From an uncultured Candidatus Saccharibacteria bacterium (GTDB lineage: Bacteria; Patescibacteriota; Minisyncoccia; Phycocordibacterales; Phycocordibacteraceae), in NCBI GenBank assembly GCA_964398865.1, contig CAYNOO010000001.1:43661-107660 (forward strand): a DNA stretch of 64,000 nt. The letters run 5' to 3'. A model generated the notes under the pieces. The model had not been told where the DNA came from, ran no database searches, and saw nothing but the letters and a program-made list of their open reading frames with translations. Position 1 is the first letter of the stretch. Each line of letters starts with the position of its first letter. Positions 6,124 to 18,046 of the stretch are shown piece after piece. The position numbers and the translations under genes are program-made.

Positions 6124-6147
6124 GACCGACGAGACGTCGGCTTTTCT
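6124..6147. terminator. bidirectional hairpin terminator ending the tRNA-His/element transcript
   Basis: ccgacg-aga-cgtcgg stem, with an A-run on one side and a T-run on the other. Confidence 0.5.
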
Positions 6148-6160
6148 GTTGGTCATCAAA

Positions 6161-6302
6161 TGGGTGGCTACAGGGAATCGGCGTCAGCTCACTAAACTCG
6201 CAGACTCGTTAAGTGGCTCCTGCCCGGACTCGACCTTCGATTCTTTCGCTATCGCTTCAGAATCGGCTTCGCGGTCTCCGTCTTTCGATTCCCTGTAGCC
6301 AC
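6161..6302 (-). repeat. tRNA-trailer element copy 1: direct copy of the tRNA-His 3' end, 46-nt conserved core, inverted copy of the tRNA 3' end
   Basis: 6161-6180 is identical to 6351-6370 (the tRNA-His 3' end). 6286-6302 is its perfect reverse complement. The core at 6181-6226 recurs at 10913-10958 and, reverse-complemented, at 17943-17988. Confidence 0.7.
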
Positions 6303-6350
6303 GTCAAAAATATAGTCATCAAACGCGTACGCGTTTTCTTCTTTATTTTT

Positions 6351-6424
6351 GGGTGGCTACAGGGAATCGAACCCTGATCGAGAGCTCCACAAGCTCCAGT
6401 GTTAACCGTTACACCATAGCCACC
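6351..6424 (-). tRNA. tRNA-His (GTG)
   Basis: Manual fold: 8-bp acceptor stem with G-1, anticodon loop TTGTGGA, T-loop GGTTCGATTCC. Confidence 0.8.
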
Positions 6425-10180: not shown

Positions 10181-10888
10181 GTGAAAATCACACCGATAAA
10201 GACACGCATCTTCAAGAATGAAGAAAATCTCTCCGAGTTCATTATCGAGCATATAAAAAAGATTCCCGATGAAGCAATACTCGTCATTGCTTCTAAAATC
10301 GTCGCCCTCTCAGAAAACCACCTTGTTCAACATTCGAACGTTGAACAAGGTGGTGAGCGGTTGATAAAAGATGAGAGCGTATGGGCAATTAAATCCGGGA
10401 ACATGTGGCTCACCGAGAAAGACGGAATGATTATGGCGAATGCCGGTATTGATGAATCAAATGCAGATGGAGGAATTATCCTATTGCCTGAAGATAGCTT
10501 CGATTCAGCGAAAGTTTTGCGACAAACGCTCAAAAAGAAATTCGGGTTGAAGCACCTTGGCATCGTAATCACCGATAGCGCACTCATGCCTCTTCGCGCG
10601 GGAGTGGTCGGCGCAGCTCTTGGTTATGCTGGTTTCAAAGGAGTTCGTGACTATCGTGGCAAGAAAGATATTTTCGGACGCACACTCAAGATGTCCCGCA
10701 CTAATATTGCAGACAGTCTCGCAACTGCAGCAACATTGGTTATGGGCGAAGGGGCAGAGCGACAACCGCTCGCCGTTATCTTGGATGCGCCAGTGGAGTT
10801 CAGTGAAAAAATCAACCGGGAAGAGACACAAATCGCAGCGAAAGATGATATCTTTTGGCCGTTGTTGAAAAGAAGAAAAAAGTCTTAA
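10181..10888 (+). CDS. CofE-like F420-0:gamma-glutamyl ligase family protein
   Basis: IASKIVALSE and MANAGIDESN motifs characteristic of the CofE/F420 ligase fold. Confidence 0.5.
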   Translation: MKITPIKTRIFKNEENLSEFIIEHIKKIPDEAILVIASKIVALSENHLVQHSNVEQGGERLIKDESVWAIKSGNMWLTEKDGMIMANAGIDESNADGGIILLPEDSFDSAKVLRQTLKKKFGLKHLGIVITDSALMPLRAGVVGAALGYAGFKGVRDYRGKKDIFGRTLKMSRTNIADSLATAATLVMGEGAERQPLAVILDAPVEFSEKINREETQIAAKDDIFWPLLKRRKKS

Positions 10889-10893
10889 GATTG

Positions 10894-11054
10894 GTGCCCC
10901 CTGCAGGAATCGGCGTCAGCTCACTAAGCTCGCGGACTCGCTAAGTGGCTCCTGCCCGACCTCGCCTCCTTCGGCAAGCTCAGGATGGCTCCGGTTTTCG
11001 ATTCCTGGCGCACGCAAAGCAGTTTGCGTGCTCAGTGTGCACTTGCTTCGCAAG
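10894..11054 (-). repeat. tRNA-trailer element copy 2 (downstream of tRNA-Arg-TCT)
   Basis: 10894-10912 duplicates the tRNA 3' end found at 11055-11073. The conserved core lies at 10913-10958. A partial inverted copy, cgattcctgg, sits at 10999-11008, followed by two perfect hairpins that abut the tRNA. Confidence 0.7.
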
Positions 11055-11126
11055 TGCCCCCTGCAGGAATCGAACCTACATCGACGGCTTAGAAGTCCGC
11101 AGCTCTATCCATTGAGCTAAGGGGGC
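11055..11126 (-). tRNA. tRNA-Arg (TCT)
   Basis: Manual fold: acceptor GCCCCCT/AGGGGGC, canonical anticodon loop CTTCTAA, T-loop GGTTCGATTCC. One A-G mismatch at 31:39. Confidence 0.75.
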
Positions 11127-17749: not shown

Positions 17750-17821
17750 GCTCCCGTCGTTCAATGGATAGGACATATCCTTGCGGAGGATACGATGTGG
17801 GTTCGATTCCTGCCGGGAGCA
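17750..17821 (+). tRNA. tRNA-Arg (GCG anticodon)
   Basis: Manual fold: acceptor GCTCCCG/CGGGAGC, anticodon arm TATCC-TTGCGGA-GGATA. Confidence 0.75.
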
Positions 17822-18007
17822 CAAGTACAAAAACAAGCTGCGCAAGCAGCTATTTTTGTTTGTGCTCCCGGAGCACGACAACTGCTTGTCGTGCGTCAGA
17901 AATCGAAAACCGGAGCCATGTCGCCTTTGCGACAGGCGAGGTCGGGCAGGAGCCACTTAGCGAGTCTTCGAGCTTAGTGAGATGCGCCGATTCCTGCCGG
18001 GAGCACA
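17822..18007 (+). repeat. tRNA-trailer element copy 3 (downstream of tRNA-Arg-GCG)
   Basis: Partial inverted copy of the tRNA 3' end at 17860-17871. Hairpin at 17872-17894. Conserved core (reverse-complement orientation) at 17943-17988. Direct 19-nt copy of the tRNA 3' end at 17989-18007. Confidence 0.7.
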
Positions 18008-18013
18008 AATACA

Positions 18014-18046
18014 AAAAACTCCAGACAATTGTCTGGAGTTTTTTGA
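18014..18046. terminator. bidirectional rho-independent terminator (tRNA-Arg/element and rpsT)
   Basis: ctccagaca-attg-tctggag stem flanked by an A6 run and a T6 run. Confidence 0.75.

What the first reader, a model, noticed from the sequence alone, without database searches (positions are those of the whole stretch)
6161..6302. Family of three paralogous tRNA-trailer elements, each bounded by copies of its own host tRNA 3' end
Seen directly: copy 1 at 6161-6302, copy 2 at 10894-11054 and copy 3 at 17822-18007 lie 40-60 nt on the 3' side of tRNA-His, tRNA-Arg(TCT) and tRNA-Arg(GCG) respectively. All three share an almost invariant 46-nt core, GCGTCAGCTCACTAA(A/G)CTCGC(A/G)GACTCG(C/T)TAAGTGGCTCCTGCCCG. 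It is written in the reverse-complement sense relative to the tRNA strand, in all three copies. Immediately next to the core, each copy carries a direct 19-20-nt duplicate of the last nucleotides of that particular tRNA (T-loop 3' half, T-stem, acceptor 3' strand). For His this is 6161-6180 = 6351-6370. For Arg-TCT it is 10894-10912 = 11055-11073. For Arg-GCG it is 17989-18007 = 17803-17821. Further toward the tRNA there is an inverted copy of the same tRNA end: a perfect 17-mer for His at 6286-6302, a partial 12-mer at 17860-17871, and a partial 10-mer at 10999-11008. The flanking repeats therefore differ between copies and track the host tRNA, while the core is constant. In two of three cases a strong terminator directly follows the element. 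The element would therefore be co-transcribed as a tRNA trailer ending in a second tRNA-like 3' end. Inference: one reading is a miniature non-autonomous element that integrates site-specifically at tRNA 3' ends, with the duplicated tRNA segment as the att identity region and the core as a recombinase-binding arm. The other reading is a structured trailer RNA in which the internal anti-3'-end segment pairs alternatively with the genuine tRNA end or with the downstream decoy copy. I know of no described element with this architecture.
Basis: partly seen in the sequence, partly recalled or inferred. Interest (0 to 1): 0.85.

Follow-up and report, generated by a model that had tools for sequence, protein, structure and literature searches.

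The report
Structured mini-elements behind tRNA genes
Three tRNA genes in this Patescibacteria genome are each followed by a ~160-190-base non-coding element that folds into a conserved three-way junction, whose closing stem copies that tRNA's own 3' end; the family is undescribed, comes and goes between related genomes, and looks like a new kind of small insertion element (or RNA device) tied to tRNA and tmRNA genes.

Summary
The three tRNA-end duplications (20, 19 and 21 nt) are the only direct repeats of 17 nt or more within 400 nt in the window.

On the tRNA strand each element reads as follows:
- the tRNA with its own 3' end (t1);
- a palindromic trailer or terminator;
- an inverted copy of the tRNA end (t'), often split by a hairpin (P1a) at the acceptor/T-stem boundary;
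- GAAA;
- hairpins P2 and P3;
- a direct copy of the tRNA end (t2), starting at T-loop position C56.

t' pairs with t2 to form stem P1, a tRNA "top-half" mimic that closes a three-way junction with strong covariation.

About 30 further copies were found, in Patescibacteria contigs only. They sit behind at least 12 kinds of tRNA and behind tmRNA, and the flank always matches the local host. No Rfam family, paper, phage or plasmid matches. Orthologous sites are empty, or are occupied by unrelated cores with the same architecture. t2 lies where the native tRNA end lies in an empty site, so the unit carries a replacement tRNA end, as tRNA-integrating islands do. No recombinase is present.

Best reading: a non-autonomous, structure-dependent insertion element of tRNA genes. 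Whether the fold acts as RNA or as single-stranded DNA is unresolved. The main rival is a tRNA-maturation switch or tRNA-like RNA.

The parts
6351..6423 (-). Host tRNA-His(GTG). Its last 20 nt (t1, 6350-6369) are the proximal copy of the repeat.
   Evidence: ARAGORN; Rfam tRNA; exact repeat
6303..6349 (-). Copy 1 trailer: an imperfect palindrome (hairpin 6321-6336) between the tRNA end and the inverted copy.
   Evidence: sequence; fold; not scored as a terminator on the tRNA strand
6286..6302 (-). Copy 1 5' arm t': a perfect 17-nt reverse complement of the tRNA-His 3' end (acceptor and T-stem 3' strands plus T-loop CGATT).
6181..6285 (-). Copy 1 core: junction AAAG, P2 (6225-6281, with an extra inserted hairpin) and conserved P3 (6181-6224).
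   Evidence: (98.8 bits)
6161..6180 (-). Copy 1 distal direct copy of the tRNA-His 3' end (t2, the decoy). It pairs with t' to form P1.
   Evidence: 16 pairs
6125..6141 (-). Terminator-like hairpin plus T-run after copy 1.
11054..11126 (-). Host tRNA-Arg(TCT). t1 is 11054-11072.
11032..11053 (-). Copy 2 short palindromic trailer (TTGCGAAGCAAG, 11042-11053) and the distal 5' arm (GTGCACACTGA, 11032-11042, 8/10 complementary to the acceptor 3' strand).
11010..11031 (-). Copy 2 P1a hairpin (GCACGCAAACTGCTTTGCGTGC), inserted at the acceptor/T-stem boundary of the 5' arm.
   Evidence: It shows compensatory differences from copy 3. The loop AACTGCTT recurs in L027, L039 and L009.
10913..11009 (-). 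Copy 2 proximal 5' arm (GCCAGGAATCG, 10999-11009), junction AAAA, P2 and P3.
   Evidence: (107.4 bits)
10894..10912 (-). Copy 2 distal copy of the tRNA-Arg(TCT) 3' end (t2). It lies 5 nt from the stop codon of the convergent F420-ligase-like gene (10181-10888), where the native tRNA end lies in the empty orthologous site L030.
17750..17822 (+). Host tRNA-Arg(GCG). t1 is 17804-17824.
17823..17860 (+). Copy 3 palindromic trailer with a terminator-like hairpin (17836-17851 plus T-run).
17861..17905 (+). Copy 3 5' arm: TGTGCTCCCGGA (17861-17872, perfect complement of the acceptor 3' strand), P1a hairpin (17873-17894), GTCAGAAATCG (17895-17905).
17906..17987 (+). Copy 3 core: junction AAAA, P2 and P3.
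   Evidence: (98 bits)
17988..18008 (+). Copy 3 distal copy of the tRNA-Arg(GCG) 3' end (t2).
18012..18045 (+). Bidirectional terminator-like hairpin after copy 3.

Best explanation
The three loci belong to a previously undescribed, Patescibacteria-wide family of small (about 150-190 bp), ORF-less, structure-dependent insertion elements of tRNA and tmRNA genes.

What the inserted unit is. Read as an insertion in the T-loop (between T55 and C56), the unit consists of:
- a replacement tRNA 3' end (t1);
- a palindromic trailer or terminator;
- an inverted copy of that end (t');
- a core.
The tRNA gene stays intact, and the native 3' end (t2) is pushed downstream. This is the same logic as integrase-driven islands in tRNA genes.

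How it folds. In single-stranded form (the tRNA-sense strand), t' pairs with a copy of the tRNA end. The result is a 10-18-bp helix that mimics the acceptor/T-stem stack of the host tRNA. It often carries a side hairpin (P1a) where the D and anticodon arms would branch. This helix closes a junction of two or more hairpins.

Shown here: the architecture, the fold with covariation, host-matched arms, the restriction to tRNA/tmRNA 3' ends, presence/absence and core replacement at orthologous sites, and the absence of any gene in the element.

Inferred: the element is propagated in trans by an enzyme encoded elsewhere. Candidates are a tyrosine-recombinase-type or other structure-specific enzyme acting on a folded single strand, as with CTXphi attP(+) or integron attC, or a tRNA-processing or RNA-dependent enzyme if the active form is RNA. 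The fold is kept because propagation depends on it.

Unresolved: whether the active form is single-stranded DNA or RNA.
For: Repeats. The three tRNA-end duplications are the only long local direct repeats in the window.

Fold.
- It is a three-way junction with 96.3% of cells paired, against 84.4% in shuffles and about 30% when the 3' partners are slid.
- 12 pairs change on both sides. Examples are the P2 base pair (CG 9 / AU 6 / GC 6 / UA 1) and a P3 pair (GC 15 / AU 7).
- A tandem G.A motif (CGAG/CGAG) and the junction GAAA are invariant.
- G-U pairs outnumber A-C, which points to the tRNA-sense strand as the folded strand.

Distribution.
- Of 27 distinct copies fetched by the core 20-22-mer, 19 lie 0-85 nt behind a tRNA or tmRNA and repeat that host's end. 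Hosts are tRNA-His, four Arg isoacceptors, Ala, two Glu, Pro, two Ser, Gly and Asp, plus tmRNA.
- The repeat always starts at T-loop C56 and ends within about 3 nt of the discriminator.

Orthologous tRNA-Arg(TCT) site next to the F420-ligase-like gene.
- It is empty in L030.
- It holds a type-I core in the window, L019 and L003; a type-II P3 in L033; and an unrelated type-III core in L031 and L029, whose tRNA is identical to the window's.
- tRNA-Arg(GCG), identical to the window's, has no element in L035.
- tRNA-Leu(GAG) is occupied in L039 but not in the window.

Position of t2. It lies 3-8 nt from the neighbouring gene's stop codon, as the native tRNA end does in the empty site. In L019 and L033, t1 carries an encoded CCA plus terminator that the empty site lacks.

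Core history. Core identity is decoupled from host. L002 (tRNA-Ala) is 95% identical to L019 (tRNA-Arg), and L001 (tmRNA) is 93% identical to L027 (tRNA-His). Meanwhile the window and L027 share an identical tRNA-His but have different cores.

Other signs of a selfish element.
- Tandem arrays, orphans, truncated copies and nested copies occur.
- At least four core types share the same architecture.
- No ORF fits in the element, and Pfam found no recombinase among 50 window proteins scanned.
Against: - No trans-acting enzyme has been identified.
- An insertion in the T-loop that carries another tRNA's 3' end would break the new host tRNA. How a core lineage reaches a new tRNA species with matching arms is therefore unexplained. 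The same P1a hairpin lineage occurs with Arg-TCT, Arg-GCG, His and Leu hosts.
- Empty sites could be precise secondary deletions between the 19-21-nt repeats rather than the ancestral state. Presence/absence alone does not prove insertion.
- P1a sits exactly at the acceptor/T-stem boundary, and the conserved G.A motifs look RNA-like. Both features fit an RNA recognised as a tRNA better than a DNA recombination site.
- The 6-of-7 occupancy of one orthologous site is high for a pure parasite.
- The sample was fetched with an exact core word, which inflates the apparent core conservation.
Confidence: 0.5

Rival explanations
1. The element is a cis-acting RNA device or a tRNA-like small RNA that serves the host. 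It would be co-transcribed by read-through from the tRNA. t' can pair either with the genuine tRNA 3' end, which traps the tRNA, or with the decoy, which forms P1 and frees the tRNA. The conserved junction (P2/P3) would bind a ligand or protein that sets this balance. Alternatively, P1 plus P1a makes the RNA a substrate for RNase P, 3' trimming and CCA addition, releasing a stable ~150-nt tRNA-shaped RNA.
For: - The fold has strong covariation and conserved non-Watson-Crick motifs typical of RNA.
- P1a sits at the acceptor/T-stem boundary in both type-I and type-III copies, giving a tRNA-like shape.
- The full-transcript minimum-energy fold pairs t' with the genuine tRNA end. It is 7-8 kcal/mol more stable than the tRNA-plus-P1 fold, so the two states compete.
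- L019 and L003 are orthologous copies and differ by a compensatory G:C to A:U change in P3, which indicates purifying selection on the structure after insertion.
- Host-matched arms are what such a function would require.
- There is no terminator between tRNA and element in the window Arg-TCT copy or in the L005 and L026 copies.
Against: - Many copies have a canonical strong terminator between the tRNA and t'.
- Distribution is sporadic. The same tRNA is with or without the element in relatives, and unrelated cores occupy one site.
- Tandem, truncated, orphan and nested copies behave like selfish DNA.
- There are no expression data.
- The Rfam tRNA model does not score the element.
Confidence: 0.27
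2. The element is an ancient, vertically inherited appendage of Patescibacteria tRNA genes, not a mobile element. Its arms would be kept identical to the host tRNA by concerted evolution, through templated correction within the long t1-trailer-t' palindrome and gene conversion between the two direct copies. Cores would be exchanged among resident elements by homologous recombination at the conserved junction sequences. Empty sites would be precise deletions between the direct repeats.
For: - The t1-trailer-t' unit is a near-perfect palindrome in many copies, for example L033, L018 and L001. That is the substrate for quasi-palindrome correction.
- In L003 exactly this palindrome has been deleted relative to L019.
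- The 19-21-nt repeats allow precise loss.
- One orthologous site is occupied in 6 of 7 genomes.
- This model explains sister cores with host-specific arms without a retargeting step.
Against: - It needs an independent origin or an original spread to at least 12 tRNA species and tmRNA in any case.
- Cores are 93-95% identical, variable loops included, between different hosts and differently classified bins.
- Unrelated core types with the same architecture at one site need replacement events.
- 20-nt repeats are short for RecA-type gene conversion.
Confidence: 0.15
3. The elements are scars of larger tRNA-integrated islands or prophages. After deletion of the interior, attL and attR and a few arm sequences would be left.
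For: - The direct repeat runs from the T-loop to the tRNA 3' end, with a regenerated tRNA and a displaced fragment. That is the standard signature of tyrosine-integrase islands (Islander, PMC4383910; T-loop sublocation, bioRxiv 10.1101/2020.11.02.365908).
- tmRNA is also a target.
Against: - The same ~100-nt core with the same boundaries recurs behind more than 12 different tRNAs, which independent deletions would not produce.
- The core shows base-pair covariation, not conserved protein-binding half-sites.
- Standard att sites have no inverted copy of the tRNA end.
- No full-length relative was found in viral contigs, phages or plasmids.
Confidence: 0.05

Closest known systems
Genomic islands and prophages integrated in tRNA/tmRNA genes by tyrosine integrases (T-loop sublocation)
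   Same: - The direct repeat runs from the T-loop to the 3' end of the gene.
- The gene is regenerated by element-borne sequence, and the native fragment is displaced.
- tmRNA is also used as a target.
- Tandem arrays occur.
- Presence/absence varies between relatives.
   Different: - Size is 150-190 bp instead of kilobases.
- There is no integrase or any other gene.
- It carries an inverted copy of the tRNA end.
- It has a conserved folded core with covariation.
- One core lineage serves many different tRNA species.
Folded single-stranded recombination sites: CTXphi attP(+) forked hairpin and integron attC
   Same: - Two copies of the target-like sequence lie in opposite orientation, separated by about 90-110 nt, and fold into a forked hairpin of about 150 nt.
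- Only one strand appears to be the folded one.
- Structure is conserved more than stem sequence across the wider family.
- After integration the hairpin arms lie at one end of the element, as t'-core-t2 does here.
   Different: - The stem mimics a tRNA gene end, not dif or the attC R/L boxes.
- No Xer or IntI link was shown.
- The stem is interrupted by a hairpin at the acceptor/T-stem boundary.
- The loop is itself a conserved structured junction.
MITEs (miniature inverted-repeat transposable elements)
   Same: Small, non-coding, multi-copy and non-autonomous, with decayed and nested copies.
   Different: - There are no constant terminal inverted repeats. The inverted segments are host-specific.
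- The 19-21-nt duplication is far longer than usual target-site duplications.
- Targeting is strictly to tRNA/tmRNA 3' ends.
tRNA-like structures used as processing or recognition handles (tmRNA tRNA-like domain, plant mitochondrial t-elements, mascRNA, viral TLS)
   Same: - It has an acceptor/T-stem coaxial helix ending at a discriminator position.
- A side arm sits where the D and anticodon arms branch.
- It lies in a transcript that tRNA-processing enzymes could cut.
   Different: - The T-loop is replaced by a two-hairpin junction.
- The acceptor helix copies the neighbouring tRNA.
- The Rfam tRNA and tmRNA models do not score it.
- No processing data exist.
Riboswitches with a switching P1 helix closing a multi-helix junction
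   Same: - A conserved junction is closed by P1.
- One P1 strand has an alternative partner, the genuine tRNA 3' end.
   Different: - The alternative partner is upstream and is a tRNA, not an expression platform.
- No ligand or regulated gene is known.
- It behaves like selfish DNA.
Primer-binding site of retroviruses and LTR retrotransposons
   Same: A 17-20-nt segment exactly complementary to the 3' end of a specific host tRNA, with its boundary in the T-loop.
   Different: - There are no LTRs and no reverse transcriptase in the element.
- The CCA complement is not consistently present.
- This is a bacterial chromosome. Group II introns are reported absent from Patescibacteria (PMC13011429).

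Membership tests
tRNA/tmRNA-gene integrating islands (Islander-type, tyrosine integrase) | Regenerated target gene plus a displaced 3' fragment as direct repeats at the element ends | tested here: met
   There are 19-21-nt exact repeats from T-loop C56 to the 3' end. The distal copy sits in the native position.
tRNA/tmRNA-gene integrating islands (Islander-type, tyrosine integrase) | Element encodes its own integrase | tested here: not met
   The element is 150-190 bp with no ORF. Pfam found no recombinase among 50 window proteins scanned.
tRNA/tmRNA-gene integrating islands (Islander-type, tyrosine integrase) | Occupied and empty versions of the same tRNA gene in relatives | tested here: met
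   L030 is empty, whereas L019, L033, L031, L029 and the window are occupied. L035 is empty. Whether this reflects gain or loss was not resolved.
MITE | Constant terminal inverted repeats recognised by a transposase | tested here: not met
   The inverted segments (t' and t) differ between copies and follow the host tRNA.
MITE | Short target-site duplication of fixed length | tested here: inconclusive
   The duplication is 19-21 nt, and its ends coincide with tRNA landmarks. One 19-nt repeat at a non-tRNA site occurs in L036.
Folded ssDNA sites (CTXphi attP(+), integron attC) | Two inverted target-like sequences separated by a spacer, folding into a forked hairpin on one strand | tested here: met
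   t' and t2 are separated by 85-125 nt. P1 has 10-18 bp. Strand asymmetry is shown by G-U versus A-C pairs. The comparison rests on PMC3089051.
Folded ssDNA sites (CTXphi attP(+), integron attC) | Recombination by Xer or IntI on the folded strand | not testable with these tools
   No enzyme could be linked to the element.
Any Rfam RNA family (tRNA, tmRNA, ribozymes, riboswitches, group I introns) | Match to a curated covariance model | tested here: not met
   Only the host tRNAs reach the gathering score. Nothing relevant appears at E up to 10 on two copies.
Structured RNA in general | Base pairs kept through compensatory changes | tested here: met
   12 pairs change on both sides, and 0 of 500 shuffles reach the observed covariation score. 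The same result would hold for folded ssDNA.
Riboswitch / cis-regulatory RNA | Transcribed with the regulated gene; two mutually exclusive folds | tested here: inconclusive
   Two competing folds are predicted. However, terminators precede many copies, and there are no expression data.
tRNA intron (group I or archaeal bulge-helix-bulge type) | Interrupts the tRNA and must be spliced | tested here: not met
   The upstream tRNA is complete in all three window copies. The one interrupted case (L003) is a deletion derivative of the L019 arrangement.

The most novel reading that the evidence does not exclude
The arms are functional address labels. One possibility is that t' acts as a ~20-nt guide that pairs with the 3' end of a chosen tRNA gene and directs insertion, so that the paired stretch becomes the duplication. 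That would be a nucleic-acid-guided, retargetable insertion element with no protein gene of its own. The other possibility is that the unit is a portable RNA switch. It would hold its host tRNA hostage through t', release it when the junction is stabilised, and give Patescibacteria tRNA-specific control of maturation. Either would be a mechanism with no described counterpart.
Probability: 0.28. Interest if true: 0.95.

Novelty: new variant of a known kind. Interest (0 to 1): 0.8.

Why it matters
If the best reading holds, Patescibacteria carry a widespread class of gene-less elements. These bacteria have tiny genomes that are thought to be streamlined. The elements exploit the most conserved sequence landmark in any genome, the tRNA T-loop and 3' end, and depend on a tRNA-shaped fold.

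This raises three concrete questions:
- Which enzyme moves the elements?
- How is a new tRNA address acquired?
- Is the fold read as RNA or as single-stranded DNA?

There are practical consequences too. tRNA finders and island finders will mis-handle these loci: the decoy ends look like att sites, L003 looks like a tRNA with a T-loop intron, and ARAGORN missed the L001 tmRNA. The ~100-nt core is also a new conserved structured motif that is not in Rfam. If instead the RNA-switch reading holds, this would be the first case of a cis element gating maturation of an individual tRNA.

Tried and rejected
- Known RNA families. Rfam returned only the host tRNAs at gathering thresholds on the window. 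Permissive thresholds on two copies gave nothing meaningful.
- Hammerhead or other small ribozymes. By inspection, the junction strands (GAAA / GG / none) and CUGACGC do not fit the hammerhead core.
- T-loop intron. L003 suggested this, but L019 shows the intact arrangement. L003 lacks exactly the t1-trailer-t' palindrome, so it is a deletion derivative.
- Phage or plasmid origin. There were no hits in IMG/VR with two patterns. The single hit (L037) is a chance match inside a phage lysis-type gene with no tRNA. INPHARED phages and PLSDB plasmids also gave nothing.
- Partner enzyme nearby. Pfam found only housekeeping, type IV pilus and T4SS-like genes among 50 window proteins scanned. A GIY-YIG ORF next to the L016 array is not found near other copies. 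A reverse-transcriptase gene abuts an orphan array in L036, but it could not be fetched because the look-ups were exhausted.
- Chance hits. The core word in L007 and L023 lies in coding sequence and these hits were discarded.
- Snap-back copying as the origin of t'. It explains the perfect palindromes, but not the conserved P1a hairpin that interrupts t' in many copies.
- Literature. Seven full-text searches found no description of such an element.
Full report
**Observation**

The window holds seven tRNA genes (Rfam agrees). Three of them are each followed on the same strand by an element with a shared core:
- tRNA-His(GTG), 6351-6423, minus strand;
- tRNA-Arg(TCT), 11054-11126, minus strand;
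- tRNA-Arg(GCG), 17750-17822, plus strand.

The 46-nt consensus matches exactly twice, against none in shuffles. The third copy differs by three substitutions and one deletion.

The exact tRNA-end duplications are:
- 6161-6180 = 6350-6369 (20 nt);
- 10894-10912 = 11054-11072 (19 nt);
- 17804-17824 = 17988-18008 (21 nt).

These three are the only direct repeats of 17 nt or more within 400 nt in the whole window. A covariance model built from 22 copies finds no fourth copy in the window.

**Anatomy on the tRNA strand**

Each locus reads, in order:
- the tRNA, ending in its own 3' segment t1;
- a trailer that is palindromic and often a canonical terminator;
- a 5' arm t' that is the reverse complement of the tRNA end, from the T-loop (T54/C56) through the T-stem and acceptor 3' strands and sometimes into the trailer;
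- the junction GAAA(G/A);
- hairpin P2;
- GG;
- hairpin P3;
- a direct copy t2 of the tRNA end, starting at T-loop C56.

t' pairs with t2 over 10-18 bp to form P1. In the two Arg copies, and in many copies elsewhere, t' is interrupted by a hairpin, P1a. It lies at the boundary between the acceptor-stem complement and the T-stem complement. That is where the D and anticodon arms leave a real tRNA. P1 plus P1a is therefore a tRNA "top-half" mimic in which the T-loop is replaced by P2 and P3.

**The fold is under selection**

On 22 copies the consensus is a three-way junction. Counting pairs on that structure gives the following:
- 96.3% of cells form standard pairs, against 84.4% in shuffles and about 30% when the 3' partners are slid by one to three columns.
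- 12 pairs change on both sides.
- 0 of 500 shuffles reach the observed covariation score.

Examples are the base of P2 (CG 9, AU 6, GC 6, UA 1) and a P3 pair (GC 15, AU 7). The internal loops are invariant: GGA/GA in P2, AGG/GAC in P3, and a tandem G.A motif CGAG/CGAG.

G-U pairs outnumber A-C pairs, and the G.A motifs would be C.U on the other strand. The folded strand is therefore the tRNA-sense strand. This does not distinguish RNA from single-stranded DNA. No Rfam family matches, even at permissive thresholds.

**Distribution**

Exact-word scans with the core found three Patescibacteria MAGs among 185,579 species genomes and 24 metagenome stretches. Two of the latter are chance hits in coding sequence. 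Viral contigs, phage records and plasmid records gave nothing real.

Of 27 distinct copies, 19 lie 0-85 nt behind a tRNA or tmRNA gene and repeat that host's 3' end. The hosts include:
- tRNA-His;
- tRNA-Arg with anticodons TCT, GCG, CCG and CCT;
- tRNA-Ala, tRNA-Glu (two anticodons), tRNA-Pro, tRNA-Ser (two anticodons), tRNA-Gly and tRNA-Asp.

In L001 the host is a tmRNA gene, which Rfam detects at 1090-1485. It is followed by two tandem elements whose arms copy the tmRNA end.

The repeat always begins at C56 of the T-loop and ends within about 3 nt of the discriminator. The remaining copies are orphans, truncated, tandem or nested.

One caveat applies. The sample was fetched with an exact 20-22-mer, so conservation of that stretch is inflated.

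**Comparison of orthologous sites**

The tRNA-Arg(TCT) locus lies between an F420-ligase-like gene (window 10181-10888) and a three-gene pilus-associated operon. The same arrangement exists in relatives. Its state varies:
- In L030 the tRNA ends 5 nt from the ligase gene and there is no element.
- L019 and L003 have type-I cores.
- L033 has the same 5' arm as L019 but a different P3.
- L031 and L029 have a tRNA identical to the window's. They carry an unrelated core with the same layout: t1, terminator, t' with a P1a hairpin, GGAATCG, two hairpins, then t2.

Elsewhere:
- In L035, a tRNA-Arg(GCG) identical to the window's has only a terminator.
- In L039, tRNA-Leu(GAG), which is unoccupied in the window, carries a type-II element.
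- A fourth core type follows tRNA-Arg(GCG) in L026.

In all occupied Arg-TCT sites, t2 sits 3-8 nt from the neighbour's stop codon, exactly where the native tRNA end sits in the empty site. In L019 and L033, t1 carries an encoded CCA and a terminator that the empty site lacks. Relative to the empty site, the extra DNA is therefore t1 + trailer + t' + core. The native end is displaced.

This is the logic of integrase-driven islands in tRNA genes (Islander, PMC4383910). It includes the T-loop "sublocation" of the repeat boundary (bioRxiv 10.1101/2020.11.02.365908; Williams 2002, from my own knowledge).

**Core history versus host**

Core identity does not follow the host tRNA or genome relatedness:
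- L002 (tRNA-Ala, Saccharibacteria bin) is 95% identical to L019 (tRNA-Arg-TCT). That is closer than L019 is to its ortholog L003 (90%).
- L001 (tmRNA) is 93% identical to L027 (tRNA-His).
- The window and L027 share a 100% identical tRNA-His but have different cores.

Within the window, the Arg-TCT and Arg-GCG copies share derived states (GAAAAC, GGTCGGG, and a similar P1a), yet each has arms matching its own tRNA. The P1a loop AACUGCUU recurs with Arg, His and Leu hosts. Arms and cores therefore have separate histories.

**What it most likely is**

The data fit a family of gene-less, structure-dependent insertion elements of tRNA and tmRNA genes that bring their own replacement tRNA end. No ORF fits in the element. 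Pfam shows only housekeeping, pilus and T4SS-like genes among 50 window proteins scanned, so any enzyme acts in trans.

The geometry resembles the CTXphi attP(+) forked hairpin (PMC3089051) and integron attC sites (PMC4792948). It has two inverted target-like sequences about 100 nt apart that fold on one strand. After integration, both lie at one end of the element. I take this as the closest mechanistic analogy, but it is an inference.

Against a purely DNA-level role:
- P1a sits exactly at the acceptor/T-stem boundary.
- The conserved motifs are RNA-like.
- A compensatory change separates the orthologous copies L019 and L003.

Against an RNA role:
- Many copies have strong terminators between the tRNA and t'. 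The window Arg-TCT copy has none and the His copy only a weak hairpin.

**Alternative pairing**

Folding the whole transcript predicts that t' pairs with the genuine tRNA end in a long hairpin. The tRNA body then pairs with t2. This fold is 7-8 kcal/mol more stable than tRNA plus P1. It is the basis of the main rival, an RNA switch on tRNA maturation or a tRNA-shaped small RNA.

**Unresolved**

- How a core lineage acquires arms for a new tRNA. A T-loop insertion carrying a foreign 3' end would inactivate the new host.
- Whether empty sites are ancestral or are precise deletions between the repeats.
- Which enzyme is involved. One lead is a reverse-transcriptase gene that abuts an orphan or nested array in L036, from the same genome as L030 and L039. 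I could not fetch it.

**Verdict**

The family is not in Rfam and was not found in the literature I searched. I rate it a new variant of a known kind (tRNA-gene-integrating elements, or tRNA-like structured nucleic acids). There is a substantial chance that the mechanism is new.

Noticed in passing
L003:2598-2780: This tRNA-Arg(TCT) gene has lost its own 3' end, its terminator and part of t' (the palindrome) relative to the L019 arrangement. The element now sits inside the T-loop, and ARAGORN misses the gene. It is either a pseudogene or a tRNA that needs RNA-level removal of the element.
   Followed up: partly
L001:1090-1885: ARAGORN missed this tmRNA gene, but Rfam finds it at 105.8 bits. 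It is followed by two tandem elements whose arms copy the tmRNA 3' end. The first copy contains an insertion and a run of N, so there may be an assembly problem.
   Followed up: partly
L036:1-600 (GCA_964937175.1): A 312-aa RVT_1 reverse-transcriptase gene ends at position 52. It is followed by about 550 nt of orphan or nested element copies, including a 19-nt direct repeat TTAGCGACTCGTGACCACA at 274-292 and 569-587 that is not a tRNA end.
   Followed up: no
L031:2195-2371, L029:2680-2870, L026:222-376, L033:2215-2368, L039:3972-4160: Core types II, III and IV have the same t1-trailer-t'-junction-t2 architecture behind tRNA-Arg and tRNA-Leu. Types III and IV have no evident sequence similarity to the window core.
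   Followed up: partly
window:35394-38109: dnaN and dnaA lie side by side, so the chromosomal replication origin is probably within the window, near 38.1-38.7 kb.
   Followed up: no
window:39984-54083: A cluster on one strand includes a T4SS pilin-like protein, a TraG/VirB4-like ATPase, a 1434-aa ORF and several proteins with no Pfam match. It may be a conjugation or type-IV-secretion-like module.
   Followed up: no
window:1215-1958: A LigT-like 2'-5' RNA ligase / 2H phosphoesterase gene, which is an RNA end-healing or tRNA-repair type enzyme, is encoded 4 kb from the first element.
   Followed up: no
window:16232-16951: There is a protein with an alternative-oxidase (AOX) domain in a Patescibacteria genome. 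The gene is conserved next to the tRNA-Arg(GCG)/rpsT/ruvA region in relatives (L035).
   Followed up: no
L016:10081-10377 and 10717-10983: An orphan tandem pair of elements (type II-like, then type I) with no tRNA upstream lies next to a 98-aa GIY-YIG nuclease-like ORF. tblastn found no such ORF near other copies.
   Followed up: yes
L029:2246-2635: A 129-aa predicted membrane ORF, with about 450 nt in total, is inserted between a truncated decoy and the F420-ligase-like gene. It is absent from the otherwise identical L031 arrangement.
   Followed up: no
L021:1-250: An IS-like transposase C-terminus and repeated 20-mers lie directly upstream of an element whose host tRNA is missing, which suggests a later IS insertion displaced the tRNA. 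A second element, on the opposite strand behind tRNA-Asp, shares a bidirectional terminator with the first.
   Followed up: partly
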